Source: a virus (Duplodnaviria > Caudoviricetes). Taken from it: a stretch of 64,000 nt of DNA. Within the stretch, counting starts at the first letter, position 1. Each line of letters starts with the position of its first letter. The stretch is from the IMG/VR virus record IMGVR_UViG_3300023218_000040, positions 64,001-128,000 of that record, one strand, 5' to 3'. Shown in pieces: positions 2,259 through 20,034 of this stretch. The translations under genes and the position numbers were made by a program. Below the pieces are notes generated by a model. That model made no database searches and was not told where the DNA came from. It saw only the letters and a list, made by a program, of their open reading frames with translations.

Positions 2259-2297
2259 TCTCTTGATATCCGGTGGGAATTAGTGATAACATATGTC

Positions 2298-2304
2298 TAT
2301 TTAC
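2298..2304 (-). promoter_or_regulatory. Late promoter motif GTAAATA for the portal gene
   Basis: Similar to the T4 late -10 TATAAATA; recurs upstream of 8 structural genes. Confidence 0.65.
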
Positions 2305-2324
2305 TTCAAGAAACCATAGGTCTA

Positions 2325-3785
2325 ATGGCTAGAAAATTCACCACGAAAGATTTCATCGAGCAAAGCCGTACGGTTCATGGTGAGGTATTCGATTACAGTA
2401 AGGTGACATACACCACGGCTCGTGATCCCGTGGTCATCATCTGTCCGGTTCATGGCGAGTTTGAGCAAATCGCTCACACGCACATGAGGGGTCGTGGATG
2501 TGCTAAGTGTTCTGCCAAAAAGATGGCTGTCAAAAGAAGCATGAAAATAGCCTCTGAATATATTGACAGGGTTAAGAAAGTTCATGGCGAACTCTACGAT
2601 CTATCTCTAGTTCGATATTCATCGGCAAAAGAACCAGTAGTGGTCATTTGTGGAAGGCATGGTAGATTTGAGATACGAGCGGATGTCTTTGAATCTGGGT
2701 CAATCTGTCCAAAGTGTTCGTATGAAAAGCGTGGACAAGATAAAGCAGATTCTTTTGAGGAATTTGTGGACAAAGGACAGCGATTGCATGCTGATCTATA
2801 TCGATATCCGCATCAAGTTTATAAGAATGCTTTTACTCACGTTGATATTGAATGTCGTACACACGGTGTATTTTCTCAAATTCCAAATAGCCACCTATCT
2901 GGTAATGGTTGTCCAAAATGTGTGCATCATGTATCATCCGGAGAGGAAGAGATAGCCAATTTTGTTAGAAATATGGCTCCAGACTTACAAACTAGCGTTA
3001 GAACAATAGTTCCGCCGAAAGAAATTGACATGTACAGTGAACAACACCAAATAGGAATCGAATATTGCGGATTGTATTGGCACACAGAAAATCGTGGTAA
3101 GAACAAAACATACCATATCGAAAAGCTGGATGGCTGTTTGAAGAAGGGAATAAATCTTATAACTATTTTCGAAGATGAATGGATTCACAACACCGATAAA
3201 GTTCAATCTCGTCTAACTCAATTGTTTGGGGCTACACCACAGCGCATTGCAGCACGAAAATGTGAGATAGAGATCGTATCTTCATCAGAATGTAGTTTAT
3301 TCATGAATGCTAATCATATTCAAGGAGCAGACATTTCTAGTGTTAGATTTGGTCTTAGGTATCATGGTGAATTAGTATCAATCATGACATTCGTTAAACC
3401 TAGATTTTCTAAAACCTACCAATGGGAGATGTCCAGGTTTTGCTCTAAAAACGGTATTTCGATAACAGGAGCAGCAGGAAAACTGTTTTCTAATTTCTTA
3501 CGAGAACATAACCCAAGCAGTGTAGTAACATACGCAGATTTGCGGTATGGGCGGGGGTACTTTTATAAACATCTGGGGTTTAAGCATTCCCATGATTCAA
3601 ATCCAAACTATTGGTATGTTGCCCCAGGCTCTACCATAAGAGAATCCCGTATGAAATACCAAAAGCACAAACTCATCAAGGAAGGATTTGATCCTGGCAA
3701 ATCCGAATGGCAAATCATGCAAGAGCGTGGTTATGACCGCATCTGGGATTGTGGTAATGCTGTTTGGGTATGGAACAAGAATTAA
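2325..3785 (+). CDS. Hef-like homing endonuclease: Zn-ribbon repeats, PD-(D/E)XK/Vsr-like nuclease, C-terminal GNAT/Mom-like domain
   Basis: Three HG..YDYS.V.Y...C..HG.F...C..C repeats; EIDMY...GIEYCGLYWH; C-terminal WEMSRFC...VVTYADLRYG...RIWDCG. ORF track starts at 2283; ATG 2325 preferred. Confidence 0.7.
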   Translation: MARKFTTKDFIEQSRTVHGEVFDYSKVTYTTARDPVVIICPVHGEFEQIAHTHMRGRGCAKCSAKKMAVKRSMKIASEYIDRVKKVHGELYDLSLVRYSSAKEPVVVICGRHGRFEIRADVFESGSICPKCSYEKRGQDKADSFEEFVDKGQRLHADLYRYPHQVYKNAFTHVDIECRTHGVFSQIPNSHLSGNGCPKCVHHVSSGEEEIANFVRNMAPDLQTSVRTIVPPKEIDMYSEQHQIGIEYCGLYWHTENRGKNKTYHIEKLDGCLKKGINLITIFEDEWIHNTDKVQSRLTQLFGATPQRIAARKCEIEIVSSSECSLFMNANHIQGADISSVRFGLRYHGELVSIMTFVKPRFSKTYQWEMSRFCSKNGISITGAAGKLFSNFLREHNPSSVVTYADLRYGRGYFYKHLGFKHSHDSNPNYWYVAPGSTIRESRMKYQKHKLIKEGFDPGKSEWQIMQERGYDRIWDCGNAVWVWNKN

Positions 3786-6943: not shown

Positions 6944-7872
6944 AAAAAAATCTTCTGTGGGTCTACCTCGAACGAAGCCGTGTTTTCATGACCGCAATTG
7001 ATACATGTGTACTTGATCTTGGTTAGGTCATTCAGCTTTTCGTTGTATGCCTTGGCTTTCCTCTGCATGTGGTCTACGATAGTGGGTGGTACCATCTCCA
7101 GCCACTCGGCTATGAAGGACTCATCGAATACCTTTTCACCCTTAGCATTGGCAACATAGAAGATACTACCTAGCGTCAGCACGAATCGAGTTTCTGAAGT
7201 GTTCTCGATCATTCGCTCATAGGCATCCATCATGCTCTCATCTTCGATGAGCTTGGTAATGCTTTCTTTCTCGATGCTCTCATATACACGATTCATTGAG
7301 ACCGAGTTCTTGAGTATGGTTAATGCGGACTTGTAGCACAGAGGCTTCATATGAACCTGTTGGCCACGAATTTCCGGAAGGATCAATAACAACGATTCCA
7401 TGTCTTCCAGTGGAGCATAACGCTGGATGTGATGGTTCAAGTCTATATCCAGCTTGTTCTTGTGATTGCATACGGCAACCTTCACCTTCTTCCCGTCATC
7501 ACCATCGACTTCCTCGGTATTTGGGTTCTCACACACGTGAGTCAATTCCATGTGACTACCATAGGATGCAAGACGACAAGCAATCATTATTGCCTGAATA
7601 TCAACTTCACACATCTCTTCGGGTTTGAGAATAGAAGGACAGATATTACGTAGAATCTTGGGCACCCCACGACCAGATGCCAGAACGAATGGATCTTTGG
7701 CAACCAGTTCCGCCATGATACCCAAAGGCTTTACTTCTAGATCGGCAGGATCAGCATCCTCTGCAATGATACCGGAACCCTTGGGATAGAAATACCCCAT
7801 GGTTGGCAATGCGATACTGACCGATGTGATATCACCAGAGTTGAGGTCTTCAAGAAGCGGATTGTTGCTCAT
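6781..7872 (-). CDS. gp26: T4 gp26-like baseplate hub / tail assembly chaperone (0-frame product)
   Basis: SIALPTMGYFYP, CPSI..P.EM.EVDI.AIMIACRLASYG, C-terminal CxxC (CINC) followed by IFF. Confidence 0.75.
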   Translation of the reverse strand: MSNNPLLEDLNSGDITSVSIALPTMGYFYPKGSGIIAEDADPADLEVKPLGIMAELVAKDPFVLASGRGVPKILRNICPSILKPEEMCEVDIQAIMIACRLASYGSHMELTHVCENPNTEEVDGDDGKKVKVAVCNHKNKLDIDLNHHIQRYAPLEDMESLLLILPEIRGQQVHMKPLCYKSALTILKNSVSMNRVYESIEKESITKLIEDESMMDAYERMIENTSETRFVLTLGSIFYVANAKGEKVFDESFIAEWLEMVPPTIVDHMQRKAKAYNEKLNDLTKIKYTCINCGHENTASFEVDPQKIFFYSPEASTPEMISSDTSKMKEKTGRRPSRTSPRSVKRMKERSNMTTSSKHPQGK

Positions 7873-7903
7873 TCCTTATCTCCGTTATTAGTCAAGGTGG
7901 GGA

Positions 7904-7910
7904 TATTTAG
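7904..7910 (-). promoter_or_regulatory. Late promoter motif CTAAATA for the gp26-like gene
   Basis: 31 nt upstream of ATG 7872. Confidence 0.55.
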
Positions 7911-8006
7911 TGCTCCTCGAACCTCGTTTCTCAAGATAAAGCTATGGCTATCCGTTAAGAGTTTCAAGCACGAACATTACGATTTTGTAATTTCTTTGAT
8001 TCACCC

Positions 8007-8035
8007 CTTGACTTTCTATTTCGGAGTACCCATAT
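8007..8035 (+). promoter_or_regulatory. RpoH/alpha-RpoD-type promoter CTTGAC-N16-CCCATAT facing the hairpin cluster
   Basis: Same geometry as the motifs upstream of thyX, dNMP kinase and rpoH. Confidence 0.45.
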
Positions 8036-8079
8036 GTAAAATACTTCTTGCTTATGATCGTACAACTTATATCTATTCA

Positions 8080-8127
8080 CTTCATGTATAACATTCTTCG
8101 CTAACGCTCAGAATGTTATACATGAAG
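8080..8127. repeat. Perfect 18-bp inverted repeat with 12-nt loop
   Basis: CTTCATGTATAACATTCT-tcgctaacgctc-AGAATGTTATACATGAAG. Confidence 0.9.
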
Positions 8128-8156
8128 GGAAAAAGACACAAGGTTATGCGGTAGCA

Positions 8157-8176
8157 CGTTTGTCTGGCGACAAACG
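8157..8176. repeat. 8-bp hairpin
   Basis: CGTTTGTC-tggc-GACAAACG. Confidence 0.8.
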
Positions 8177-8191
8177 GTAGCTCCCGTTATT

Positions 8192-8215
8192 CCGTTTCGG
8201 TCTAGACCGAAACGG
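8192..8215. repeat. Perfect 24-bp palindrome (possible terminator or origin element)
   Basis: CCGTTTCGGTCTAGACCGAAACGG, just past the stop of the 8226-8840 gene; followed by a G run. Confidence 0.85.
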
Positions 8216-8225
8216 GGGGGGAGGT

Positions 8226-8840
8226 TTAGATAGATAGGGGATCAGGGATACGGTATTGGCTTTCAGGGCGAGGCTTGTAATCTGAGACTGCTATGATAGC
8301 TTGCTCACGATCACAACCATATTCAGTCTGCTTGGAATCAACCTCGTCCCAGAATTCATCTTCTAGTTGTTTCTGTTTACCAACGAATTCATCAGTTGGT
8401 TGCTCACCAGGAAATACCTTGAATCGAGTTTTGGATTTAATGTCTGGATGGTTATCCCAGGTTTCTTTCCAAGCATTCTTGATGATCCATTCGATGTACT
8501 CAACCTTCTCTGCTACGCTATACTCAATACCATCGTTGTGAATATTGGGTGCAGTAATGTGTTTACCGTTGTTCTTGAGCTTTGGGAAAGACGGTAGGAT
8601 ATCAGTATAGCGTTCGTTGTAGTCACAGAGCTTCGCTGCTTGTTCTAACGTGAAGTCCTTACCACGGCATTTTCTCCAAAATGTCTGCTCAATGAACTTT
8701 TGAAACTCTTCACGAGTATCCAGCCAAGGCAAACAAAGCACGTCCATGTACCATTTGGCCATGGCATATTCTTCATCGGCTGTAAAGCATACGAACGAGA
8801 GCGTGCTCCCGTTCGATAGCTTCGTCTCCACTAGTTTCAT
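8226..8840 (-). CDS. Hypothetical protein
   Basis: 204-aa ORF translationally coupled (ATGA) to thyX. Confidence 0.75.
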   Translation of the reverse strand: MKLVETKLSNGSTLSFVCFTADEEYAMAKWYMDVLCLPWLDTREEFQKFIEQTFWRKCRGKDFTLEQAAKLCDYNERYTDILPSFPKLKNNGKHITAPNIHNDGIEYSVAEKVEYIEWIIKNAWKETWDNHPDIKSKTRFKVFPGEQPTDEFVGKQKQLEDEFWDEVDSKQTEYGCDREQAIIAVSDYKPRPESQYRIPDPLSI

Positions 8841-11800
8841 AGCATGAACTTATTCAAGAACTCCGTGATCTCTCGCTGTGAGCAACCTTTATCCTTCAGT
8901 TCTTTTGAAATCGGATCCTTATCGAGTCCACGAAGCAAATCACGGACTACCTCATATTCCATTCTACTCAATTGAGATCCCTCAAGCAAGTAGTCACGAA
9001 AAGCTTCTGTTGCCCATGGCACATGGGGCTCGATCAGTTCCAGAATAGCATCAGCAAATACTCGGATTTCGTACTGAGCATGTGGATCGCAGCGTAGCTT
9101 CAGGAAGTGGAACAGGTTATGTAGGTTACCCGACCAATACATTTGGCTGTACGTGGCAACAGGCAGTACCATACGAGCTAGCTCCCTGGCAATACCTGGG
9201 AAGTCACCAGCCAATTCTGACACACCGTTCTGCTCTAGATACGCTGTAATCGCCTCAGAGACGCTTTCCTCGGTGGGATAGGGGTCTACATTGCCAGCGT
9301 CCGCAGCACGCTTCCTGGCCTCCCTGACGGCTACTACGGCTGCTTCCTTGCACCACTCGATACGGCGGCGAACACCATCGGGTGGAGGAGTCAGATCTCC
9401 ATTTTCATTTGGACCTAGAAGATGAAGGTAAGTCTGATAGCTAGTATCGAATACCTCGTCAACAGCCGCCATGACCGCATTATATTCTTGTTCAGTCAGA
9501 ACGTCACCAGAACGACCCTGGCGGTTGCTGGTGCTTTGTGGAGCTAGATGCCCCAAGTCTGGGTGGTACATCTCTCCATCGAGAACTGAGTAACGTGCGC
9601 TGTACTCGTTGATCGAGTTATGAACAATCATTCCGTTTGCTACGAAATTGTGGTTTGGTCCCTCGACGCAGATGTCATACGTATCTTCTATTCCAATCAA
9701 CTCTATTTTGATGATTTTAGATGGTCGGGCTACCATCAAGTTGCCTTTCCCCTTACCTGCTCGATGCAACAACCCATCTCCATGCTCTTGACCGTGAGCC
9801 CTTCGGTGACAGGAGACACACAATGTTACTAGGTTATCGAAATCGTATGCGTGTTCAGGGTAATCAACAACCGGCAATACATGATGCACTTGGAGTTGAT
9901 TCTTGCTTGAACACTCGTTACATCTGTAGTCGAATTTTTCATGCACTTTTGGTGCTTGTGCAGTGGTCCATGCACCTATGAGTTGGCGTTCTGGGGTGAT
10001 CCCTCCTTTCCAGAAATTGCTATTTTCACCAGAGCGAGCACGCTTAATTGCCGATATGTGATCATCAGAATGAACCAAATTTGTACTATACCCATATACA
10101 TCTTTGTTCCATGGTTTATGACCTTTTTTGAAACGATTCTCACCGTTAGAAAACTGTAGACCATGAATACGAAGCCATTTTCTGATTGTATGGTAGCTAC
10201 AGCCAGCGTTTGATGCTATTTCTTGAACTGAATAACCAAGATTTCGTTGGTTATTCATCCAATTGAAATCCTGGTGTGCCGGTATCCCATTACACATAAC
10301 ATAGGCATCTTTGGTTATACACGCACGATTGTTTGTTACTGTTAAACCAACCGCATCTTCCAACCTCTGCCAACCATCAAGCGTATAAATCTGATGGTCC
10401 TTGGAACATTTGAGAGTCTTACCGTTTTCTAATGTTATTTCGAAGACCTGTTTTGGTCCACTGTATATTACATCATTGATTGTACCAGTTGTGAATTGTT
10501 CAGCGGATTCGTCATACACTCGAAGTAACATCGAACGAATTCTAGTTCTATTGAAATCTCTCAAAGATCTTTTCTGCTTGTCCTTTCTCTTTATCGGTGG
10601 ATTTTCATTCCATTTTCTATGAAGATCTGAAAGCTTCATGTATTTTGCTGTACGAACACCGAGCTTAATATGATCTGGCAACTCGAATGTGATAACAGAA
10701 TCGCCAGACAAACAGAACGTACGGTGGCGGTGCCACTGACGAAATACGAAGATCGGAGCCTTGACGTGAAACTTGAAGTTGCACATCTCGAATGGAGTCG
10801 AATTAGATGACACAAAACCATATTTAGTATTTGCTCCACGTACCATTAAAAAACCACTAGACGTAGTGGCACAATATACACTACCGGTATATTGAGATGT
10901 TGAATGGTATTGCTTCCTACTTTCAAGACTGGTACGCCCGTTTGGAAAATATATATTGACGGTGTAACCGCTTTGGCGTTCACGACAATAATGACTATCT
11001 AAACCTAAACGTGGTGAGATAGCAGACACTATGTCTGTGAGATTTTTGGATGTAGAACTAAATGATATTTGATGTCTATCACTTTTGTGATTTCCATCGC
11101 TTTCAACCAAACCAGTTAGTAGTCCTCGTAGTTCTTCTCCAGTTAGATTACGAAGATTTTCTAGTTGGAAATGTTTGTTGTTTGTTTGTGTATCTATTTC
11201 TAAACAAACTCGTAATTCATCTGGAGTAGTAATGTAGAACCTTGTTGTATCTTTACTATCCACCGAACTGGTGTATTCCCAACCCAATCTGTGAAGTAAA
11301 GAGGTTAAAAACGAAATCTTACGTTCCTTTTTGAATCCAAAACTAATCCTATTTGGACTTGCCACGTGACCATCACCAAGGAACATACCGACGAACGTAT
11401 AGAAATCATCAATCACACCGTTATACGGATGGGTTGAGTATCCTAACATGGATTCAAACCACCCCCACTTTGGCATGTCCTTTGCCCGATATACCTTGAA
11501 ATCGTTCTGATACTTTTCCTTAAACAACATTTTGTGTTCGTCGGTTACAGAGTATGACATTCTTTCATTGGAGAATTCATACATGATTCCATCGTAATCA
11601 AAGGATTTAACTTCTAACTCCTCGACTGTGTAAGAACGGGTATCGGGGTTAGGAACAAGAAAAGTTTCGACGGAATTACATTCACACCATTTCTTCCATC
11701 CTTCAATCGTTAAAACTTCCATATCTGGATGATAGCAATGTAGGTGACGCATGAGGTATCGGATCAACCCCTTATCGGAGTTAACCTTCTTTGTACCCTT

Positions 11801-11995
11801 GCCATATGAGACACGGGCTGCGTTCACAATGGACGAGTCATCGCCCATGAAGTCCACCAGACCGACAAAGCCGGTATCTAGAACCTTCCTGTACTGTGGC
11901 TGCCAGACACGAAACGTCTCATCGTGTTCTGCGCTACGAATAACGAATTCATCATCGAAGTCGTCCGGGACTTCTACTTTCACAAATCGAGTCAT
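8837..11995 (-). CDS. thyX: FAD-dependent thymidylate synthase ThyX precursor with two inteins (spliced product about 374 aa)
   Basis: IVNAARVSY, RHLH|STPFEM, RQWHRHRTF|SINEYSARYS (ThyX motif), RELARMVLP, NLHNLFHFLKLR...HAQYEIR. Confidence 0.95.
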   Translation of the reverse strand: MTRFVKVEVPDDFDDEFVIRSAEHDETFRVWQPQYRKVLDTGFVGLVDFMGDDSSIVNAARVSYGKGTKKVNSDKGLIRYLMRHLHCYHPDMEVLTIEGWKKWCECNSVETFLVPNPDTRSYTVEELEVKSFDYDGIMYEFSNERMSYSVTDEHKMLFKEKYQNDFKVYRAKDMPKWGWFESMLGYSTHPYNGVIDDFYTFVGMFLGDGHVASPNRISFGFKKERKISFLTSLLHRLGWEYTSSVDSKDTTRFYITTPDELRVCLEIDTQTNNKHFQLENLRNLTGEELRGLLTGLVESDGNHKSDRHQISFSSTSKNLTDIVSAISPRLGLDSHYCRERQSGYTVNIYFPNGRTSLESRKQYHSTSQYTGSVYCATTSSGFLMVRGANTKYGFVSSNSTPFEMCNFKFHVKAPIFVFRQWHRHRTFCLSGDSVITFELPDHIKLGVRTAKYMKLSDLHRKWNENPPIKRKDKQKRSLRDFNRTRIRSMLLRVYDESAEQFTTGTINDVIYSGPKQVFEITLENGKTLKCSKDHQIYTLDGWQRLEDAVGLTVTNNRACITKDAYVMCNGIPAHQDFNWMNNQRNLGYSVQEIASNAGCSYHTIRKWLRIHGLQFSNGENRFKKGHKPWNKDVYGYSTNLVHSDDHISAIKRARSGENSNFWKGGITPERQLIGAWTTAQAPKVHEKFDYRCNECSSKNQLQVHHVLPVVDYPEHAYDFDNLVTLCVSCHRRAHGQEHGDGLLHRAGKGKGNLMVARPSKIIKIELIGIEDTYDICVEGPNHNFVANGMIVHNSINEYSARYSVLDGEMYHPDLGHLAPQSTSNRQGRSGDVLTEQEYNAVMAAVDEVFDTSYQTYLHLLGPNENGDLTPPPDGVRRRIEWCKEAAVVAVREARKRAADAGNVDPYPTEESVSEAITAYLEQNGVSELAGDFPGIARELARMVLPVATYSQMYWSGNLHNLFHFLKLRCDPHAQYEIRVFADAILELIEPHVPWATEAFRDYLLEGSQLSRMEYEVVRDLLRGLDKDPISKELKDKGCSQREITEFLNKFML
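9617..10714 (-). mobile_element. Intein 2 in thyX (366 aa) with HNH endonuclease
   Basis: Starts CLSGDS, block B CSKDHQI, HNH CNEC...VHH...NLVTLCVSCH, ends IVHN|S. Confidence 0.92.
10802..11737 (-). mobile_element. Intein 1 in thyX (312 aa) with LAGLIDADG endonuclease
   Basis: Starts CYHPDMEVLT, block B VTDEH, FVGMFLGDG and LTGLVESDG, ends VSSN|S. Confidence 0.9.
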
Positions 11996-12027
11996 GGGGT
12001 TTCCTCCAGGATGGAATTACCTCATGA

Positions 12028-12056
12028 ATATAGGTTCAGCTAGGCTTCTTTTCTAG
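12028..12056 (-). promoter_or_regulatory. RpoH-type promoter CTAGAA-N16-CCTATAT upstream of thyX
   Basis: One mismatch to the rhizobial RpoH-type consensus CTTGAA-N16-CCTATAT as I recall it. Confidence 0.6.
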
Positions 12057-12729
12057 ACCTTGAGTACCGCTCATCCAGCCATTGGCCCACGGTTTCTCCG
12101 GTAGTCAACACCGCTTCTCGATCTGGAATAGTGAAATACACAATCGAATACTGAGTACGCCCTTCAGGATCGGCTACCACTTCATGCTCAGTGGCCTGGA
12201 ATTTTGGGTTGACTAGCTCCAGGATTTCTCCGAAGTGGATCTGCTTATTCAGTTTTTGTGCATCCATCAGGGGAATACACTCATCTAAATCATCGTTTTG
12301 AGTGTACCTGAAATTTTCAGGGATATTTCTATAGCACATCAGAGTGAACAGATCGAAGTCCACATGTGGGTGTGCGATGGCACCGGGTGGATACTCCAGG
12401 ATACGCATCGCACTCAGGCTACGAACTGGCCAAAATTCTTTAGGGATACCAAGCTCGATTGCTATATCTACAGCACGGTCGTGTGCTTTGTCCAGATATT
12501 CACTTAAAATAGTGGCTCGAACAAACGTGTCACCTTTCTTTGACGATCCGACGTGGATGCTGTTCTTACGCATTTCATTGAGATATTTGGTTGCCACATG
12601 AGCATATCGTTTCTCTGTGTCCCAATTGCCGTTACCGTTTGGAGATTCAATCATTTCGGGACGATATCCTGGGTAGTCATCCCTAAAGACGAGATCGCTC
12701 AGTACTTTATAATCGTGTACTGTAAACAT
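12040..12729 (-). CDS. 2-oxoglutarate/Fe(II) oxygenase, IPNS/DIOX-like
   Basis: HVDFDLFTL (HxD), IHFGEILE, distal TEHEV, RTQYSIVYF; start 12729 coupled by TAATG to the dNMP kinase stop (ORF track starts 12774). Confidence 0.75.
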   Translation of the reverse strand: MFTVHDYKVLSDLVFRDDYPGYRPEMIESPNGNGNWDTEKRYAHVATKYLNEMRKNSIHVGSSKKGDTFVRATILSEYLDKAHDRAVDIAIELGIPKEFWPVRSLSAMRILEYPPGAIAHPHVDFDLFTLMCYRNIPENFRYTQNDDLDECIPLMDAQKLNKQIHFGEILELVNPKFQATEHEVVADPEGRTQYSIVYFTIPDREAVLTTGETVGQWLDERYSRSRKEA

Positions 12730-13463
12730 TATTGGTGCTCCCATGGAGTCAATTCTATAGTCTCTCCATCCCAATAGGTGTCGCTCATATGCTCATTCCA
12801 TTGTTCTTCGAGCGCAGTCATAATCTGGGGAGTCATCTTTGGTTTATACCCGATTGCCTTCAATAGTCGATAACGGAACTTGCTTAGGTTGTGTTCTTCG
12901 CTGTACTCCTCGTTAATTTCGTTTTCTACGATAGAGTCCCACTCATTCCAGGTTTCCCATTCAGTCTCGGACTTGTGTTCAGTGGAGGCTGTAAGGGTGG
13001 ATCGCTCACCAGTTCGCTGTATCAGGATTAGCTTACCATTCAAATCTTTAACGAACTGGAGTTCGTTAATGAATCGACAATCGGTGAGCAACCCATAGTC
13101 AAATTCGTCATACTCTCCACGCTGAATGGCGAGCTTGAGAGCTATGATCCAGGCTTCCTGATGAAGTCCTTCACGGAAGCATTCGGTTCCAACTTTTTGC
13201 ATCACGACACGACGAGTCATCCCTAGCATCTCACATGCTGGATCAGGACTACCATCATCTAGGGTGTCACCTTCTTTGTAATCATAATCGTTCAAAAGAC
13301 GATCATAGTCCCACCCGAACATGAGAGCACATACAGCCTTTAGGGGATCTGCAAACGACAGTTTGATAACACGGTTGCCATATTCCTCCAGGGCTTCGGT
13401 CACGAGTTTGGCAGCGGTGTCTTTTCCAGATCCGGCTTTGCCGGAGAAACCAATGATTTTCAT
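12729..13463 (-). CDS. Deoxynucleoside monophosphate kinase (T4 gp1-like)
   Basis: GFSGKAGSGKDT, KLSFADPLK, RRVVMQKVGTECFR, TDCRFINE, HKSE. Confidence 0.9.
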   Translation of the reverse strand: MKIIGFSGKAGSGKDTAAKLVTEALEEYGNRVIKLSFADPLKAVCALMFGWDYDRLLNDYDYKEGDTLDDGSPDPACEMLGMTRRVVMQKVGTECFREGLHQEAWIIALKLAIQRGEYDEFDYGLLTDCRFINELQFVKDLNGKLILIQRTGERSTLTASTEHKSETEWETWNEWDSIVENEINEEYSEEHNLSKFRYRLLKAIGYKPKMTPQIMTALEEQWNEHMSDTYWDGETIELTPWEHQ

Positions 13464-13491
13464 ATATCACTCTCGGATGTTCTTTATCCAA

Positions 13492-13520
13492 AGATAGGAA
13501 GACCGAAAATATATATCAAG
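13492..13520 (-). promoter_or_regulatory. RpoH-type promoter CTTGAT-N16-CCTATCT upstream of dNMP kinase
   Basis: Direct motif match; 28 nt upstream of the ATG. Confidence 0.6.
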
Positions 13521-13896
13521 CTGACTCTACGTCGATCTTTACCGGATGGGACACCGAGTATACCTGTTCCGGTGCTTGTTGTTTGGAATATTCCTCAAGT
13601 TCTTCAGGGGTCATATCGATTGCATAGGACTGAAATTCGTCATTACCCATGGTCTTTTTCATGTCCGTTGCAACGTCAATGATCAACTGGTAGTAATCAT
13701 CATGTCGATCAACGATGAATGAGTCACCAAGAACTAGTAACTCCTCGAAGTGTAGTGATCCACGAATACCTTTTTCCTTGAGGTATCCCTTCCAGAGATC
13801 AATCATACGATTGTTCAACTCCGGAGTCATTTTCAGCCAAGATGTGATGAGATCGGCGGTTAGCTCGTATACAGTTTCATCAAGCAGAAGTTTCAT
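13516..13896 (-). CDS. Hypothetical protein
   Basis: Acidic ORF; start MKLLLDE preferred over the track start at 13926. Confidence 0.65.
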   Translation of the reverse strand: MKLLLDETVYELTADLITSWLKMTPELNNRMIDLWKGYLKEKGIRGSLHFEELLVLGDSFIVDRHDDYYQLIIDVATDMKKTMGNDEFQSYAIDMTPEELEEYSKQQAPEQVYSVSHPVKIDVESA

Positions 13897-14380
13897 AGCT
13901 AATAATACTCCAGCCATATTTTGCAATCAATGCCGCTTCTGCTTTGCCCTCATCAGCGGTCTTATATTTGAAGTCCGATGCGTTATTAGGGAAGTTCTGT
14001 TTGGCTAGTTCAACAGAATCAACTTTAGCTGCACCAATGAGACCAACTTGTTTCTTCCAGACTTGTGATCGAACTAGAATATACTCCAGGTCTAGTCCGA
14101 TAAGCAATCCTTGCCATTGACCCAGGTTTTGACCGAATCGAAACATACCAGTGACGCCCTGTCCCGGCATAGCTGATACTTGCTCAAGAAAAATCTGACT
14201 CACGGGATGTCGAAGAAGAATGTCCCGGCACTCGCCAAGATCCATGTCATCTCGGGTGGTCTTCTTACCTCGTTTGACGAATGGAACTTTGACCGTTGGC
14301 GTTCGATACGCCAACAGCTTAGTGGGTGAGTAGAAGGCTATTCCGCCTTTTATTCCTGGGTCGATTCCAACTGTATACAT
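13880..14380 (-). CDS. ruvC: RuvC-like Holliday junction resolvase
   Basis: VGIDPGIKGG, FLEQV...QGVTGMFRFG, WKK, DEGKAEAALIA; RBS GGAGG. Confidence 0.85.
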   Translation of the reverse strand: MYTVGIDPGIKGGIAFYSPTKLLAYRTPTVKVPFVKRGKKTTRDDMDLGECRDILLRHPVSQIFLEQVSAMPGQGVTGMFRFGQNLGQWQGLLIGLDLEYILVRSQVWKKQVGLIGAAKVDSVELAKQNFPNNASDFKYKTADEGKAEAALIAKYGWSIISYETSA

Positions 14381-14414
14381 GTTTTCCTCCGAGTATACTT
14401 ATCCCCGTAGGCAT

Positions 14415-14675
14415 TCATCTCGGTAGGTCTGCCAAATCAGCTATTTTTTGAGGTCGATGAACCTTTACTACCTCGAATGTTGGTCTGTCTCCACCTAACA
14501 TTGGGTTCCAGCCATGATTCATGTAGTGTTCAATCATCCTGATGGCAAGATATCCATTCCATCGAGTGGATGCTTTTTTCTCATCACTGACGAGGCATGG
14601 ATTACCTTCGTCATTCTCCCCGATCCACAGAACGGAACCCACTAGTTTTGCAGCGTACTTGTAGTGGATGTCCAT
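14415..14675 (-). CDS. Hypothetical protein
   Basis: 86-aa ORF in the co-directional gene run. Confidence 0.7.
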   Translation of the reverse strand: MDIHYKYAAKLVGSVLWIGENDEGNPCLVSDEKKASTRWNGYLAIRMIEHYMNHGWNPMLGGDRPTFEVVKVHRPQKIADLADLPR

Positions 14676-14676
14676 G

Positions 14677-15081
14677 TTAATCCTGAGTGCATTTGATTGC
14701 TACCAGCCTCCATCCTCCGCTGGTTTTGCCCAGATTCTCGTTGATGAAGTCTAGGCACATCCCATACGGAATCTGACGAGTGTTATCCTGGTGTTTACCT
14801 CCACGGACCATAGTCATCACCATTGTGCCTATATCGGTGTCATACACGATATTATTTCCCCATTCTCTGGTTTCGATACGGGTATAGTTCTTCACGTCTG
14901 GCTGGAGGGACATTTCTCCACGATTGGCGGATCCACTGTATTCTTGGTAGACTTCTTTTTTTCCCTTATAGGAAGCAGGACGGTCTAGATTTATCGGAGA
15001 CGGTTGAACATTGTTTTTGTTGCATCCAGTCAGAACTACTGCCAGCAAAAGGGTTGCTACTATTTTCATCGTTCTGACCAC
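14677..15081 (-). CDS. Putative lipoprotein
   Basis: Signal-like KIVATLLLAVV followed by lipobox LTGC. Confidence 0.7.
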   Translation of the reverse strand: MVRTMKIVATLLLAVVLTGCNKNNVQPSPINLDRPASYKGKKEVYQEYSGSANRGEMSLQPDVKNYTRIETREWGNNIVYDTDIGTMVMTMVRGGKHQDNTRQIPYGMCLDFINENLGKTSGGWRLVAIKCTQD

Positions 15082-15476
15082 ATGTTTGTAATGACCTCTA
15101 ATTCCTCGATGTACCTTTTGTACACAGGATTGTTATCCTGGAATGTCCACTTGTCCGTGTAAAGCTGAAGGGCAATCTTTACCCAATTTGGATGCTTGTT
15201 ATACAACCACAATGCCCATAGCCCACTTGGATTTGGGTTTTCAATGTTATGTCTCGAACAAGATAAACCAACATCATCCGGAGTTGGAATGTGAATAGTA
15301 GCAACCTTCTTACCATTTACTGTCCAGACGATACGGTCCGTTTTTTGTGCTTCACGCACTGGAAGAGTGAAGTCACCTATCTCCTCGAACCACCAGTTGC
15401 CGGTGGAGACTGCTACATGATCAAGCGAAGTTACGAACGAAGTTACGAATTTAGCGTTCATCTTCCTCTTTTCCAA
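15066..15476 (-). CDS. Hypothetical protein
   Basis: 136-aa ORF tiling the operon. Confidence 0.65.
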   Translation of the reverse strand: MEKRKMNAKFVTSFVTSLDHVAVSTGNWWFEEIGDFTLPVREAQKTDRIVWTVNGKKVATIHIPTPDDVGLSCSRHNIENPNPSGLWALWLYNKHPNWVKIALQLYTDKWTFQDNNPVYKRYIEELEVITNMWSER

Positions 15477-16895: not shown

Positions 16896-19808
16896 TTATG
16901 CTCCATACTCGATTTTGGACATTCTGTTCTCTTTGATGATTTTCATCACATCTTCAACACGAGCGGCAATGTCATCACGGTGAGTAATCAGGAAGGCACG
17001 CTTGCCTTTCTTGGTGCATGTCTCTTTGAGAGCACGTACAGCGTTTTCGGCACCACGAGGACAGATGCCAGAATCGATAAGCTCATCGACCGCCAACAGA
17101 TTGATGCTGTAGTTCATGAACTCGAATACGTCCTGGAATGCGAAGTTCAAAGCGATACGAACCCGGTTACGCTCACCTTTGGAGAGATTACCAAAGTCAA
17201 ACTCTTCGTGATAATCAGTAATGCTCACTGTCAGGTCTGGCTGGAAAGCTACGATGTGTGGTAGCTCCAGGATCTCCAGCCAATACGCAATTCTCTTGTT
17301 CAAGATTGGCATCCATCGGTCGATGATTAGCTTCCTCAAGAACGAATCTTTTTTTGTCAACAAATCTATGAGGTAGTTATAATGTGCGATCAGCAAACGT
17401 AAGTCCTTGATTTCACTCTCATCGACTTTCTTTATTGCTTCTTCACGAAATTTCGTTACACTTTCAACGTGCGGATTTTCGTCTACTTCTACTTTTTCTA
17501 GTTGCTCACGTAGAGCCTTGAGCGTGGCACCGGCACTAGCTGCTTCCTCTACCGATCCGTAAGTGAGGTTTAGGCGGTCGATGTCACGCAGAGCTTCATT
17601 GAGGTTGGAAATCTCTGTCTTGAGTTCGAGTTCTCTTTTCTCCAGGGTTTTCATTTCAGTAGTAACGTGAAGTTCTTTGTCCTTGCTTTCGGCGTACCGC
17701 AAGACAGCTTCTTCTAGACTTTCGGCCAAGGTCTTTTTGTACTCCGGATCAGCTACCCAATGTTGATTGCAGGTAGGACAGGTCTCTTCTTCTAGTTTAG
17801 CTAGTGACGCTTGGGTTTCGGTTACATACTGGTCATCACGTTTCTGTTGACGTTCATGTTCTTTCAATTCGTTCTGGCAGCGACGAACCTCAGATTTGAT
17901 CTCACGCAGGCCCGCTTCCAGTTCTTTCACCTGGGCGTAGGCGTCGGTTGCCAGATTGAGCATTTCGATTTCTTTCTTGACATCAACTGCCTCCAGGGTC
18001 TTGATTGTCTCCTGGAGTTCTGCTATAGTATCAGCTTTTTTCTTTTCCCACGCCTTGGATTTGGCTTCAAGCTCCTTAACCTGGGCTTCGATACGAGAAT
18101 TGGCTTGTTTGGTTGCTTCGATAGAGGATTCTGCGGTCAACAGATCTTTGTTCTTCTCCTTTCGTTCATCCTTGAGAAGCTTTGCCTTTTCGGTCATGAT
18201 GGTGAAACCGAACAGATGCTCGATCACATCACGGCGTTTGTCTTCTGGTAAACGGAAGAACTCCAGGGACTCGGAAGTATTGGCGACAAGATACTCGAAT
18301 AGGGTGATATCGAAACCGAGGATGCCAACGATCTGGTCAGTGGTTTCGTTCTTACCACGAGCTATATCGTGCTTGAGTTTTCGACCATCCTTGGCCTTGA
18401 AGTCAGAGTCATCATCTAGCTTTTTTCGGAACAAGAAGAGCTTGGATGGTCGTTCTGTTCGTTCAACGAGATAGCGGTACTCATCCTTGGTAAATTCGAC
18501 GCTGACTATCATTGAGCCCTTGGGCGATAGTTTATTGATGAGTTTCTGATTTGAGATGCCTCGAACCACCTTGCCAAACAAGGCGTAACATAAGGCGTCG
18601 ATGATTGCGGAATTATGTGTAACGACATAATTATCAGTTACGTATAGATGGTCAGGGTCAGAAACCGTTATACATTGTACCTCTTCCGAACATATTGGTT
18701 TGATGTCAATAATCTCTAAACGTAGAGAATTTTGGTACTGATAAGGTATCGGAAGTTTCTCAATCTTTCGTTGAAGTCGAAATAGGGTTTCTCTCTGAGG
18801 GTGACGTATACCAACACGATATGATGGCTGTCCCTGTCTTTTCTTCCCGTTATGAGTGTATAACTTGTTTAGTTCTGTTATTTTGGCGATGCCACCGATT
18901 TTCCATACCAAGTTTTGAACTTGTGAAGCAAGTACGGGGCTAGTAGTAGTGAATGAAACGGAACCATTAGCATCCACGGTACCATCTGAATCGAGTAGTC
19001 CTTGAAGAAGGTGTTTGGTTTGGGTAATAGACATTTCCATGTATGCATCAGGAATTGTCTTTTCCCAAGCCCGACTATCCCACATGCCCAAGGAACGTAG
19101 ATGAATAGAAACGGGATTGAACCCTTTAGATCCATCAGTAATAGTGTAAGTAAGCTTGTTTGGTCCTCGGACCTCTACCCCATCGGGAAGTATTGAGCGA
19201 ACAGTCTCTACAATTGCCTCATCTTTGGTGGTGAATCGAACACCAGAAGTGAAATTACCGTCACCGATGAGTATACCTAATAGATATGGATCTATTGGTA
19301 CATTTGTATCTGTGCGTTTCATTTCGCCTGGGAATAGGGGGACGTAAGTGCGCCCAGATGCACCTGGGAACTTTTCTCGATGCTTAATTATATCGAACGT
19401 AGATTGAACGGACCATCCCCAATTAGAACCATTCCGATTCCAAATCTTCCACAGATGATCTCCACAGCATTTAACCACCCGTCCGTCTGAAAAGGTAACT
19501 GCAAATACATCTCGAATTCCACGGGGATGCACTCCTGTTACAATTGTAGGTTTTCCGGTCCCAGAGATGATGCAGGAGCCAATTTCCATCTCTCCCATAG
19601 TTGACCAACCATAAGGAGTTAGGATTTTAGAATCTAAAGGTTGAGCTTTTCCACAACCATTTCTGGAATCTTCTCCCCCGGTATCTCGGTTCTCACCCAG
19701 CACAACAGTGATATGATCGCCCCCAAGGGGAACAACCACTTCCTTCGCTCCAAAGGAGAGGAAGTTTCTCAGTCGTAACTCATTAAACTCTAAAGCTTGA
19801 TTCGCCAT
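16896..19808 (-). CDS. gp46: Recombination ATPase gp46/SbcC/Rad50 precursor with an intein in Walker A
   Basis: LRLRNFLSFG, NGCGK|S, Zn-hook CPTC, signature LSKGE, Walker B LLAVDE; start MANQAL (track start 19832). Confidence 0.92.
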   Translation of the reverse strand: MANQALEFNELRLRNFLSFGAKEVVVPLGGDHITVVLGENRDTGGEDSRNGCGKAQPLDSKILTPYGWSTMGEMEIGSCIISGTGKPTIVTGVHPRGIRDVFAVTFSDGRVVKCCGDHLWKIWNRNGSNWGWSVQSTFDIIKHREKFPGASGRTYVPLFPGEMKRTDTNVPIDPYLLGILIGDGNFTSGVRFTTKDEAIVETVRSILPDGVEVRGPNKLTYTITDGSKGFNPVSIHLRSLGMWDSRAWEKTIPDAYMEMSITQTKHLLQGLLDSDGTVDANGSVSFTTTSPVLASQVQNLVWKIGGIAKITELNKLYTHNGKKRQGQPSYRVGIRHPQRETLFRLQRKIEKLPIPYQYQNSLRLEIIDIKPICSEEVQCITVSDPDHLYVTDNYVVTHNSAIIDALCYALFGKVVRGISNQKLINKLSPKGSMIVSVEFTKDEYRYLVERTERPSKLFLFRKKLDDDSDFKAKDGRKLKHDIARGKNETTDQIVGILGFDITLFEYLVANTSESLEFFRLPEDKRRDVIEHLFGFTIMTEKAKLLKDERKEKNKDLLTAESSIEATKQANSRIEAQVKELEAKSKAWEKKKADTIAELQETIKTLEAVDVKKEIEMLNLATDAYAQVKELEAGLREIKSEVRRCQNELKEHERQQKRDDQYVTETQASLAKLEEETCPTCNQHWVADPEYKKTLAESLEEAVLRYAESKDKELHVTTEMKTLEKRELELKTEISNLNEALRDIDRLNLTYGSVEEAASAGATLKALREQLEKVEVDENPHVESVTKFREEAIKKVDESEIKDLRLLIAHYNYLIDLLTKKDSFLRKLIIDRWMPILNKRIAYWLEILELPHIVAFQPDLTVSITDYHEEFDFGNLSKGERNRVRIALNFAFQDVFEFMNYSINLLAVDELIDSGICPRGAENAVRALKETCTKKGKRAFLITHRDDIAARVEDVMKIIKENRMSKIEYGA
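18612..19646 (-). mobile_element. Intein in gp46 (345 aa), Ala-start, class-3 signature, LAGLIDADG endonuclease
   Basis: Starts AQPLDSKILTP; block B GDHLW; block F VQCITV; ends VTHN|S; LLGILIGDG and LLQGLLDSDG. Confidence 0.9.
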
Positions 19809-20034
19809 CGTAATCCTGCTTAGATAACACATCCGGGTGAATGGACCACTTAAAGACTAGCGTTTCGCCGTCTTTTCCGCTTGTCCTAAAAACGATATGG
19901 TTTTTTTCACACTCAGTCAAGAATGCGTAGACTTCGGCTTTGTCTAGATCCATGAATTCACTAATCCCTTGTGATGAAATAGAACCGTTTTCTAGGATGT
20001 ATTCCAAAATCTCATGTTGTAGCTCAGTATTCAT
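19783..20034 (-). CDS. Small winged-helix DNA-binding protein
   Basis: QHEILEYILENGSISSQGISEFMDLDKAEVYAFLTECEKNHIV fits a wHTH pattern. Confidence 0.55.
   Translation of the reverse strand: MNTELQHEILEYILENGSISSQGISEFMDLDKAEVYAFLTECEKNHIVFRTSGKDGETLVFKWSIHPDVLSKQDYDGESSFRV

What the first reader, a model, noticed from the sequence alone, without database searches (positions are those of the whole stretch)
12040..12729. IPNS-type 2OG-Fe(II) oxygenase coupled between dNMP kinase and thyX
Seen: HxD...H facial triad and TAATG coupling to the dNMP kinase gene, directly upstream of thyX. The canonical RxS motif reads RTQYS, so the 2OG-binding Arg is shifted or replaced. Known: fungal thymine-7-hydroxylase belongs to this structural family. 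Inference: it may hydroxylate a thymine-type base or nucleotide, feeding a modified-DNA or salvage route together with the kinase.
Basis: inference. Interest (0 to 1): 0.65.

Follow-up and report, generated by a model that had tools for sequence, protein, structure and literature searches.

The report
Phage-only oxygenase with relocated cofactor arginine
A giant phage carries, between its nucleotide kinase and thymidylate synthase genes, a compact iron oxygenase from a phage-only, uncharacterised family that appears to have moved its cofactor-binding arginine to a neighbouring strand; its substrate is unknown but probably a DNA building block.

Summary
Window 12040-12729 (-) encodes a 229-aa protein whose ATG overlaps the dNMP kinase stop (TAATG). 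It ends 44 nt before an intein-laden thyX.

It is a genuine but divergent IPNS/DOXC-type Fe(II) oxygenase. Pfam scores it below cut-off, but the AF2 model (pLDDT 92.8) matches T7H, GA2ox, H6H, EFE, AdaV and IPNS at Z 12-14.

About 220 homologues exist. All come from metagenomes or viral contigs; none was found in 185,579 prokaryote genomes or in GenBank phages.

The "RxS" arginine is replaced by Gln193 (209/218). The canonical Gln of the beta-III "LLxQD" motif is instead Arg134 (213/218). All 218 members carry exactly one Arg/Lys across these two positions, and the pattern flipped back at least twice. I read this as a relocated 2OG-binding arginine, so the enzyme probably still uses 2OG.

In several unrelated phage lineages the gene lies within three genes of ThyX, ThyA, dNMP kinase, dUTPase/dCTP deaminase or a MazZ-like domain. 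A (deoxy)nucleotide, nucleoside or base substrate is therefore plausible. Thymine-methyl hydroxylation is neither supported specifically nor excluded.

Verdict: new variant of a known kind, moderate interest.

The parts
12040..12729 (-). 229-aa Fe(II)/2OG-type oxygenase (P0001), a phage-only IPNS/DOXC-fold family. Metal triad H122/D124/H182. 2OG-site residues R109, Y113, R134, Q193, S195. C-terminal lid W217, R221, R224-S225-R226.
12729..13463 (-). dNMP kinase (244 aa). Its TAA overlaps the oxygenase ATG (TAATG).
   Evidence: PF21448 4.8e-11, phrog_139 4.5e-38; sequence; the pairing is kept in L012, L013, L015, L032
8837..11995 (-). ThyX (flavin-dependent thymidylate synthase), a 1052-aa precursor with a LAGLIDADG intein and an HNH intein. 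It starts 44 nt downstream of the oxygenase stop.
   Evidence: PF02511 3.1e-41, PF14890, PF14528, PF01844; ThyX at +1/+2 in L012, L013, L016
8226..8840 (-). 204-aa ORF of unknown function, ATGA-overlapped with the thyX stop. It is conserved after thyX in L012 and L013 (cluster c34).
   Evidence: no Pfam or PHROG match
12732..12744 (-). Shine-Dalgarno-like GGGAG, 8 nt before the oxygenase ATG and inside the end of the kinase gene.
   Evidence: read

Best explanation
The gene encodes an active, stand-alone non-haem Fe(II) oxygenase of the IPNS/DOXC structural class. It lacks the first ~50 residues of the usual N-terminal domain. Iron is held by H122, D124 and H182. 2-Oxoglutarate is most likely still the co-substrate. 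Its C1 carboxylate would be held by R109 (= T7H R190). Its C5 carboxylate would be held by Y113 and S195 as usual, but the salt bridge would come from R134 on strand beta-III instead of the canonical Arg on beta-VIII, which is Q193 here. This is a reciprocal Gln/Arg swap between neighbouring strands. A conserved C-terminal helix (W217, R221, R224-S-R226) would close the pocket, as in T7H and ACC oxidase. The prime substrate is inferred to be a small molecule of deoxynucleotide metabolism (a base, nucleoside or dNMP) that is hydroxylated or oxidatively demethylated. The enzyme is made together with the dNMP kinase and ThyX. Shown here: the gene, its coupling, the fold, the conserved triad, the Q193/R134 covariation, the phage-only distribution and the neighbourhood. 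Inferred: 2OG use, the role of R134, and the substrate class. The chemistry and the exact substrate are unknown.
For: Fold: AF2 pLDDT 92.8, pTM 0.90. VIA Z is 14.3 (T7H) down to 12.3 for about 18 IPNS-type enzymes, against 7.7 for AlkB. Foldseek gives E 1e-7 to AdaV-like nucleotide halogenases, SO_2589, H6H and T7H. Invariant in 218/218: Y113, H122, D124, G167, H182. R109 is in 217/218. Residue mapping uses the profile alignment to T7H and the T7H structure paper PMC4787775: R109=R190 (2OG C1), L111=L192, Y113=Y194, C132=L223, V184=V273, S195=S288, Q193=R286, R134=Q225. Q225 is two residues after the 2OG-contacting L223, so it lies on the same face of that strand. Model strands 128-134 and 193-199 are neighbours in a double-stranded beta-helix. 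Covariation: (R134, Q193) in 209 members. All 4 members with R193 lack R134 (Q, Q, S, D), and 218/218 have exactly one Arg/Lys at the two sites. The four form two separate sister pairs inside an R/Q-majority clade. In T7H, mutating R286 or S288 only moderately lowers activity. Context: TAATG coupling and no terminator. ThyX/dNMPK, ThyA, a MazZ-like domain or dUTPase/DCD lie within 3 genes in five of 21 non-redundant loci, and none of these lies further out in the 16-kb loci (about P 0.002). Other neighbours are DNA pol A, ligase, helicase and nucleases. Members of this fold class with known substrates act on small molecules, including thymine (T7H), pyrimidine nucleosides (PDN2'H) and dAMP (AdaV); all three are in the hit list.
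Against: No biochemical data exist for any member. I could not read model coordinates, so the R134-to-2OG geometry rests on alignment and topology, not on measured distances. Structural matches are flat (Z 12.3-14.3), so none points to a substrate. About three quarters of informative loci have no recognisable dNTP-pool gene nearby, only replication or repair genes or unknowns. Phage nucleotide and replication genes cluster anyway, so proximity is weak evidence for the substrate. The covariation rests on only two independent events. The Pfam score is below the gathering cut-off.
Confidence: 0.55

Rival explanations
1. This is the first reader's idea: a T7H-like thymine-methyl oxidase. The enzyme hydroxylates the C5-methyl of thymine, thymidine or dTMP (made by the adjacent ThyX) to 5-hydroxymethyl-uracil species. 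These are then phosphorylated by the coupled kinase for modified DNA, or feed a salvage route.
For: T7H is nominally the top VIA match (Z 14.3) and the second PDB hit by profile (E 0.012). Equivalents of T7H's base-stacking pair exist: F125 = Y217 (F in 187/218) and F199 = F292 (F in 212/218). The gene has ThyX at +1 in this lineage and ThyA at -1 in L047/L048.
Against: Z values of a dozen unrelated-function enzymes are within 1-2 units. By my knowledge of the Pfam consensus, the F292 position is aromatic across PF03171. T7H N294 is I/A here, and identity is 16%. The held 204-kb record has no ThyA/hydroxymethylase homologue and no Tet_JBP match, and I saw no iso-orotate decarboxylase or 5hmU-processing gene; it does have dCMP deaminase, dUTPase and ThyX for ordinary dTMP supply. 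Many family members have no thymidylate synthase nearby. The known phage T-dioxygenases are TET/JBP-type and act on DNA (PMC13229309).
Confidence: 0.13
2. A 2OG-independent oxidase, in the manner of IPNS or ACC oxidase. Loss of the RxS arginine would mean 2OG is no longer bound. The enzyme would then oxidise its substrate directly, or use another reductant or oxo-acid.
For: Q193 replaces the canonical Arg in 209/218 members. IPNS and ACC oxidase share this fold and are in the hit list. In ACC oxidase the RxS pocket and C-terminal basic residues bind other anions (PMC6549523).
Against: Both IPNS and ACC oxidase keep RxS. Here every other 2OG contact of T7H is kept (R109, L111, Y113, V184, S195). 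A basic residue is always present at 134 or 193, never at both or neither, as expected if an anionic carboxylate is still bound.
Confidence: 0.12
3. An enzyme unrelated to nucleotides: a hydroxylase of a host or phage protein, or a metabolic gene acting on another small metabolite or draining 2OG. It would sit in the early/replication gene block only because accessory genes accumulate there.
For: The immediate neighbours differ among lineages, and most are unknowns or replication/repair genes. Phage 2OG oxygenases of other subfamilies are common accessory genes (BFVD hits to cyanophage proteins).
Against: The fold class is the small-molecule IPNS/DOXC type. Prolyl hydroxylases score Z 9 or less and cyanophage proteins are distant. 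In several lineages the gene is directly adjacent to, or coupled with, dNTP-pool enzymes.
Confidence: 0.15
4. A nucleic-acid-level enzyme: oxidative repair (AlkB-like) or post-replicative base oxidation of DNA/RNA.
For: Neighbours often include DNA polymerase, ligase, nucleases, SprT-like proteins, methyltransferases and glycosyltransferases.
Against: AlkB and ALKBH proteins score only Z 6.8-7.7, against 12-14 for small-molecule enzymes, and no TET/JBP appears in the top 50. There is no Pfam AlkB or Tet_JBP match. The 229-aa protein has no extra nucleic-acid-binding element, and no fused forms were found.
Confidence: 0.05

Closest known systems
Neurospora crassa thymine-7-hydroxylase (T7H, PDB 5C3P-5C3S)
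   Same: Same IPNS-type double-stranded beta-helix (Z 14.3, 194 residues aligned, rmsd 3.5). It shares the HxD..H triad, the C1-carboxylate Arg (R190 = R109), Tyr194 = Y113, Ser288 = S195, the aromatic pair Y217/F292 = F125/F199, and a C-terminal lid helix.
   Different: Identity is 16%. About 50 N-terminal residues are missing. R286 is Gln and Q225 is Arg (swapped). N294 is not kept. T7H is a fungal salvage enzyme on free thymine and works with iso-orotate decarboxylase, which was not seen here.
SO_2589 of Shewanella oneidensis (PDB 3ON7, 'oxidoreductase, iron/ascorbate family', function unknown)
   Same: It is the best sequence-level relative among solved structures (profile E 1e-5, aligned over residues 14-212, including the N-terminal G-Y/F...E...D-x-K motif). 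Z is 13.4.
   Different: It keeps the canonical R-x-S and has Ala at the R134 position. It is bacterial and 280 aa long. Its own function is unknown, so it gives no functional transfer.
AdaV / AdaV-like Fe/2OG nucleotide halogenases (PDB 7W5S, 7W5T, 7FH5)
   Same: Top Foldseek hits (E 9e-8), with Z 12.7. They show that this fold class can act on a deoxynucleotide (2'-dAMP).
   Different: By my knowledge of that family, halogenases have Gly/Ala in place of the Asp of HxD. Here D124 is invariant, so this is a hydroxylase-type site. Identity is 14-18%.
Phage TET/JBP-type 5-methylpyrimidine dioxygenases (5mYOX; PMC13229309)
   Same: They are phage-encoded Fe/2OG oxygenases tied to thymine or 5mC chemistry.
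   Different: They belong to a different structural subfamily (TET/JBP), for which no Pfam or fold match was obtained here. They act post-replicatively on DNA, some with a ParB-like activator.
ACC oxidase / IPNS (2OG-independent members of the fold)
   Same: Same fold (Z 11.2 and 12.5). In ACC oxidase the Gln of 'LLFQD' (Q188) and C-terminal basic residues are needed for activity (PMC6549523). That Q188 is this Gln is from my recollection of the sequence. The pattern parallels R134 and the R221/R224/R226 tail here.
   Different: Both keep RxS. Their substrates (ACC, ACV tripeptide) have no counterpart in phage biology.

Membership tests
Fe(II)/2OG oxygenase superfamily, IPNS/DOXC class (Pfam PF03171) | Double-stranded beta-helix core of the IPNS type | tested here: met
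   AF2 pLDDT 92.8; Z 12.3-14.3 to T7H, GA2ox3, H6H, EFE, AdaV, IPNS, DAOCS; Foldseek prob 1.00
Fe(II)/2OG oxygenase superfamily, IPNS/DOXC class (Pfam PF03171) | HxD...H facial triad | tested here: met
   H122, D124, H182 in 218/218 members; aligned to T7H H214/D216/H271
Fe(II)/2OG oxygenase superfamily, IPNS/DOXC class (Pfam PF03171) | RxS on strand beta-VIII binding the 2OG C5 carboxylate | tested here: not met
   Q193-x-S195; Gln in 209/218 and Arg in 4/218. A basic residue at position 134 is present instead.
Fe(II)/2OG oxygenase superfamily, IPNS/DOXC class (Pfam PF03171) | Pfam gathering score | tested here: not met
   19.9 bits against a cut-off of 23, E 9.7e-4; 21.4 bits in the genome search
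Fe(II)/2OG oxygenase superfamily, IPNS/DOXC class (Pfam PF03171) | N-terminal DIOX_N domain (PF14226) | tested here: inconclusive
   No Pfam hit. Structural alignments start at residue ~35-100 of the targets. The G-Y...E...D-x-K motif of that region is kept.
Fe(II)/2OG oxygenase superfamily, IPNS/DOXC class (Pfam PF03171) | 2OG decarboxylation coupled to substrate oxidation | not testable with these tools
   Needs an enzyme assay
Thymine-7-hydroxylase (EC 1.14.11.6) | Base-stacking aromatic pair (F292, Y217) | tested here: met
   F199 and F125 by the profile alignment. By my knowledge, the F292 position is aromatic in most PF03171 proteins, so this is weakly diagnostic.
Thymine-7-hydroxylase (EC 1.14.11.6) | Polar uracil contacts N87, E122, N294 | tested here: inconclusive
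   N294 aligns with I201 (mostly I/A in the family), so it is not kept. N87 and E122 lie outside the sequence-aligned stretch.
Thymine-7-hydroxylase (EC 1.14.11.6) | Closer to T7H than to other subfamilies | tested here: not met
   Z 14.3 against 13.7, 13.4, 13.3 for unrelated enzymes; the profile hit to SO_2589 is stronger than to T7H
Thymine-7-hydroxylase (EC 1.14.11.6) | Oxidation of thymine to 5hmU/5fU/5caU | not testable with these tools
   Needs an assay
TET/JBP 5-methylpyrimidine dioxygenases (PF12851) | TET/JBP-type catalytic domain | tested here: inconclusive
   No PF12851 match at E <= 0.1. None was found in the record, but the control genomes did not ring either. None is among the top 50 fold matches.
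AdaV-type Fe/2OG halogenases | Asp of the triad replaced by Gly/Ala to open a halide site (feature from my knowledge of the family) | tested here: not met
   D124 is invariant
AlkB-type nucleic-acid repair dioxygenases | AlkB-type DSBH with nucleotide-recognition lid | tested here: inconclusive
   Z 7.7 (E. coli AlkB), well below the IPNS-type hits; no Pfam match

The most novel reading that the evidence does not exclude
The operon encodes a pre-replicative, oxygen-dependent route to a modified pyrimidine. ThyX makes dTMP. The oxygenase oxidises a dNMP, for example the dTMP methyl group to give 5-hydroxymethyl-dUMP. The translationally coupled dNMP kinase then passes the product on towards DNA. 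This would be a third route to 5hmU-type DNA, distinct from the ThyA-like dUMP hydroxymethylases and from post-replicative TET/JBP enzymes. It would be carried by a phage-only oxygenase family with a rewired 2OG site.
Probability: 0.1. Interest if true: 0.85.

Novelty: new variant of a known kind. Interest (0 to 1): 0.5.

Why it matters
About 220 phage proteins form an unstudied branch of one of the best-known enzyme superfamilies. No Pfam or PHROG model recognises them above threshold, and they are absent from cellular genomes. They show a clean natural experiment: the co-substrate arginine has moved from one beta-strand to the next and swapped places with a glutamine. This is directly testable by a two-residue swap. 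It also bears on how motif-based rules ("RxS") are used to call 2OG dependence. The repeated placement beside thymidylate synthases, dNMP kinase, dUTPase/dCTP deaminase and MazZ-like genes makes the family a concrete candidate for an unknown oxidative step in phage deoxynucleotide metabolism or DNA modification. If the substrate turns out to be mundane, the result is still a useful annotation for a recurrent "hypothetical protein".

Tried and rejected
- GenBank phages (INPHARED): megablast of 8 kb around the gene and tblastn of the protein found nothing.
- 185,579 GTDB genomes: no relative by pattern scan plus tblastn.
The long contigs of homologues P0065, P0079 and others could not be read, so neighbourhoods come only from the search for related loci (68 loci).
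- PHROGs: only a non-significant hit, phrog_28277 at E 0.0085.
- Fused forms: none above 402 aa. Longer homologues carry only weak zinc-ribbon-like matches, all below the Pfam cut-off, or insertions, not nucleotide-binding domains.
- BFVD viral fold library: the best hit is an unnamed 209-aa protein; cyanophage 2OG oxygenases are distant.
- Promoter/terminator scan of 7800-15200: fewer promoter-like sites than in shuffles, and no terminator between kinase, oxygenase and thyX, so it gives no operon boundary.
- R191 as a shifted 2OG arginine: rejected, because it is not conserved (P/S/W/N in other clades).
- Halogenase reading from the AdaV hits: rejected, because D124 is invariant.
- PHROG/Pfam annotation of recurrent unknown neighbours (clusters c2, c7, c108, c52, c53, c119 and the 204-aa ORF after thyX): no matches.

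Full report
**1. What is there**

On the minus strand, an ORF at 12040-12729 encodes 229 aa (P0001). Its ATG shares one base with the TAA of the preceding 244-aa ORF (12729-13463), reading ...CAC CAA TAATG TTT..., and GGGAG lies 8 nt upstream. The preceding ORF is a dNMP kinase (PF21448 4.8e-11; phrog_139 4.5e-38).

The oxygenase stops at 12042-12040. Forty-four nucleotides later, after a GGAGG, a 1052-aa ThyX precursor starts at 11995. It has PF02511 at 3e-41 and carries a LAGLIDADG intein and an HNH intein. The ThyX stop overlaps (ATGA) the start of a 204-aa ORF with no family match. No terminator-like site separates these genes.

The window is part of a T4-like jumbo phage, with a gp20-type portal and a T4 baseplate protein. 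The held record is an IMG/VR contig of 204 kb, estimated 55% complete. The same protein also occurs on a 360-kb contig.

**2. Is it an oxygenase?**

Sequence evidence alone is marginal: PF03171 gives 19.9 bits, below the cut-off of 23. A profile of 26 homologues hits PDB 3ON7 (SO_2589, "iron/ascorbate oxidoreductase family") at 1e-5 and N. crassa T7H at 0.012.

The AlphaFold model built on that alignment is confident (pLDDT 92.8, pTM 0.90). Compared with 48,161 PDB representatives, it gives these Z scores:
- 14.3 for T7H
- 13.7 for GA2ox3
- 13.4 for SO_2589
- 13.3 for H6H
- 13.2 for EFE
- 12.7 for AdaV
- 12.5 for IPNS
- 9.3 or less for prolyl hydroxylases
- 7.7 for AlkB

Foldseek agrees. Its top hits are AdaV-like nucleotide halogenases at 9e-8, with T7H at 5e-7.

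The protein therefore belongs to the IPNS/DOXC class. The ranking within that class is flat and says nothing about the substrate. Alignments begin at residue ~35-100 of the targets, so this is a trimmed version lacking the first part of the usual N-terminal domain.

**3. The family**

About 216 homologues were found among 5.8 billion clusters, corresponding to 160 clusters at 50% identity among 1.84 billion representatives. Most have no annotation, and a few are labelled "isopenicillin N synthase-like dioxygenase" by JGI.

Relatives were found on 11 IMG/VR contigs and 57 metagenome contigs. None was found in 185,579 bacterial and archaeal genomes or in GenBank phages. The nearest ESM-Atlas clusters are 100% viral. 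No fused form was found.

**4. The active site**

In an alignment of 218 members, Y113, H122, D124, G167 and H182 are invariant, and R109 is present in 217. I used the HMMER alignment to T7H (chain index = paper numbering + 2) and the T7H structure paper (PMC4787775) to map the residues:

| This protein | T7H | Role in T7H |
|---|---|---|
| R109 | R190 | 2OG C1 carboxylate; essential |
| L111 | L192 | 2OG hydrophobic contact |
| Y113 | Y194 | 2OG C5 carboxylate |
| H122 / D124 / H182 | H214 / D216 / H271 | metal binding |
| F125 | Y217 | substrate stacking |
| C132 | L223 | 2OG hydrophobic contact |
| V184 | V273 | 2OG hydrophobic contact |
| Q193 | R286 | 2OG C5 carboxylate |
| S195 | S288 | 2OG C5 carboxylate |
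| F199 | F292 | substrate stacking |

The canonical Arg of RxS is thus Gln, in 209/218 members.

The residue aligned with T7H Q225 (the Gln of the widespread "LLxQD" motif) is R134, present in 213/218 members. It lies two residues after the 2OG-contacting L223 position, so it is on the same face of strand beta-III. Model strands 128-134 and 193-199 are neighbours in the major sheet of a double-stranded beta-helix; this is established topology, and the inference is mine.

The two positions covary:
- (R134, Q193) occurs 209 times.
- The four members with R193 have Q, Q, S or D at position 134.
- The one member with neither Arg has K134.
- So 218/218 members carry exactly one basic residue across the two sites.

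In a FastTree phylogeny, the four R193 members form two separate sister pairs nested in a 47-leaf clade that is otherwise R/Q. That implies at least two independent flips.

I conclude that the 2OG-anchoring arginine has most likely been relocated rather than lost, and that the family probably still uses 2OG. In T7H itself, R286 and S288 mutants lose only part of their activity. The conserved C-terminal W217-x3-R221 and R224-S-R226 resemble the lid helix of T7H (Y324, R328) and the essential C-terminal residues of ACC oxidase (PMC6549523).

**5. Context in relatives**

The closest lineage (54-59% identity: L012, L013, L015, L016, L032) keeps dNMP kinase - oxygenase - ThyX. Other lineages, at 37-50% identity and in phages of other types, show:
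- ThyA at -1, preceded by a phosphoribosyltransferase (L047/L048).
- A protein with a dATP/dGTP-diphosphohydrolase N-terminal domain at -1 (L001/L018).
- dUTPase/dCTP deaminase at +2/+3 (L030, L034).

I scanned 134 neighbours within three genes in about 50 non-redundant loci. Pfam found Thy1 ×3, ThyA ×1, DHFR ×1, dUTPase/DCD ×2, DNMK ×2 and dGTP_diPhyd_N ×3. It also found DNA pol A, helicase, PD-(D/E)XK, Endo VII, SprT-like, GT2 and MT-A70.

In 21 non-redundant loci longer than 6 kb, all six homologues of ThyX, ThyA, dUTPase, dNMPK or MazZ lie within ±3 genes. That zone holds 30% of the ORFs, which gives a rough P of about 0.002.

The association with deoxynucleotide genes is real but partial: about a quarter of informative loci show it, and no single partner gene is conserved.

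The held record also encodes dCMP deaminase and dUTPase. It has no ThyA-like hydroxymethylase, no second PF03171 protein and no Tet_JBP match. The picture is one of ordinary dTMP supply, with no visible hypermodification machinery in the 55% of the genome held.

**6. Interpretation**

- **Best reading (0.55):** an active Fe(II)/2OG oxygenase with a relocated C5-carboxylate arginine, acting on a small molecule of deoxynucleotide metabolism, with the exact substrate unknown.
- **Thymine/dTMP methyl hydroxylation:** The aromatic pair is kept and thymidylate synthases are neighbours in two lineages. However, it is not singled out by fold ranking, polar contacts or pathway context.
- **Comparison with known phage enzymes:** the known phage thymine dioxygenases are TET/JBP enzymes that act on DNA (PMC13229309). 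This family is structurally different.
- **Other rivals:** a 2OG-independent oxidase, a function unrelated to nucleotides, and nucleic-acid repair. These are set out in the rival explanations.

**7. Verdict**

This is a new variant of a known kind: a phage-restricted IPNS-type subfamily with an Arg/Gln swap. Interest is moderate (0.5). The decisive experiments are simple: a 2OG turnover and substrate screen, and the R134Q/Q193R swap.

An earlier first-stage note of this scan on the same DNA (e1-5362859) had also spotted QYS in place of RxS. I confirmed that point independently.

Noticed in passing
window 8837-11995 (-): The ThyX precursor is 1052 aa. Thy1 matches are split around a LAGLIDADG-type insert (about residues 216-390) and an HTH+HNH intein (about 494-793). 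dTMP synthesis by this gene needs two splicing events. Other notes of this scan had already flagged this.
   Followed up: partly
window 8226-8840 (-): A 204-aa ORF is ATGA-overlapped with the thyX stop. It is conserved right after thyX in L012 and L013 (cluster c34) and has no Pfam or PHROG match. It is a possible fourth member of the kinase-oxygenase-ThyX string.
   Followed up: partly
protein P0134 (407 aa, homologue from the representative library): This family member has an in-frame insert of about 200 aa between positions equivalent to residues 137 and 154 (the variable loop). The insert carries an HNH-like motif (…DRIDNDRGYEPGNCRW…), so it is an intein or an inserted homing endonuclease inside the oxygenase.
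   Followed up: partly
window 16896-19832 (-): A 978-aa ORF has a weak, below-cut-off SMC_N (Rad50/gp46-like) match split by a LAGLIDADG domain. It is probably another intein-bearing replication/recombination gene.
   Followed up: no
window 2283-3785 (+): A 500-aa ORF on the opposite strand sits between the portal gene and the next structural gene. It has a DUF723 match and is possibly a free-standing homing endonuclease.
   Followed up: no
L047:6499-8615 (+) and L048: In a distant phage lineage the gene string is phosphoribosyltransferase (phrog_32468) - ThyA - oxygenase homologue. This is a second, independent pairing of the family with a thymidylate synthase.
   Followed up: partly
L001/L018:7183-7998 (+): A 272-aa protein directly upstream of the oxygenase homologue carries a dATP/dGTP diphosphohydrolase N-terminal domain (PF18909) at its C-terminal end. 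DNA polymerase A lies three genes downstream.
   Followed up: no
homologues P0219, P0220, P0225: Longer relatives (329-369 aa) have an N-terminal or inserted CXXCXGXG zinc-ribbon-like segment. The DnaJ central-domain matches are weak, E 6e-5 to 4e-4 and below the Pfam cut-off.
   Followed up: no
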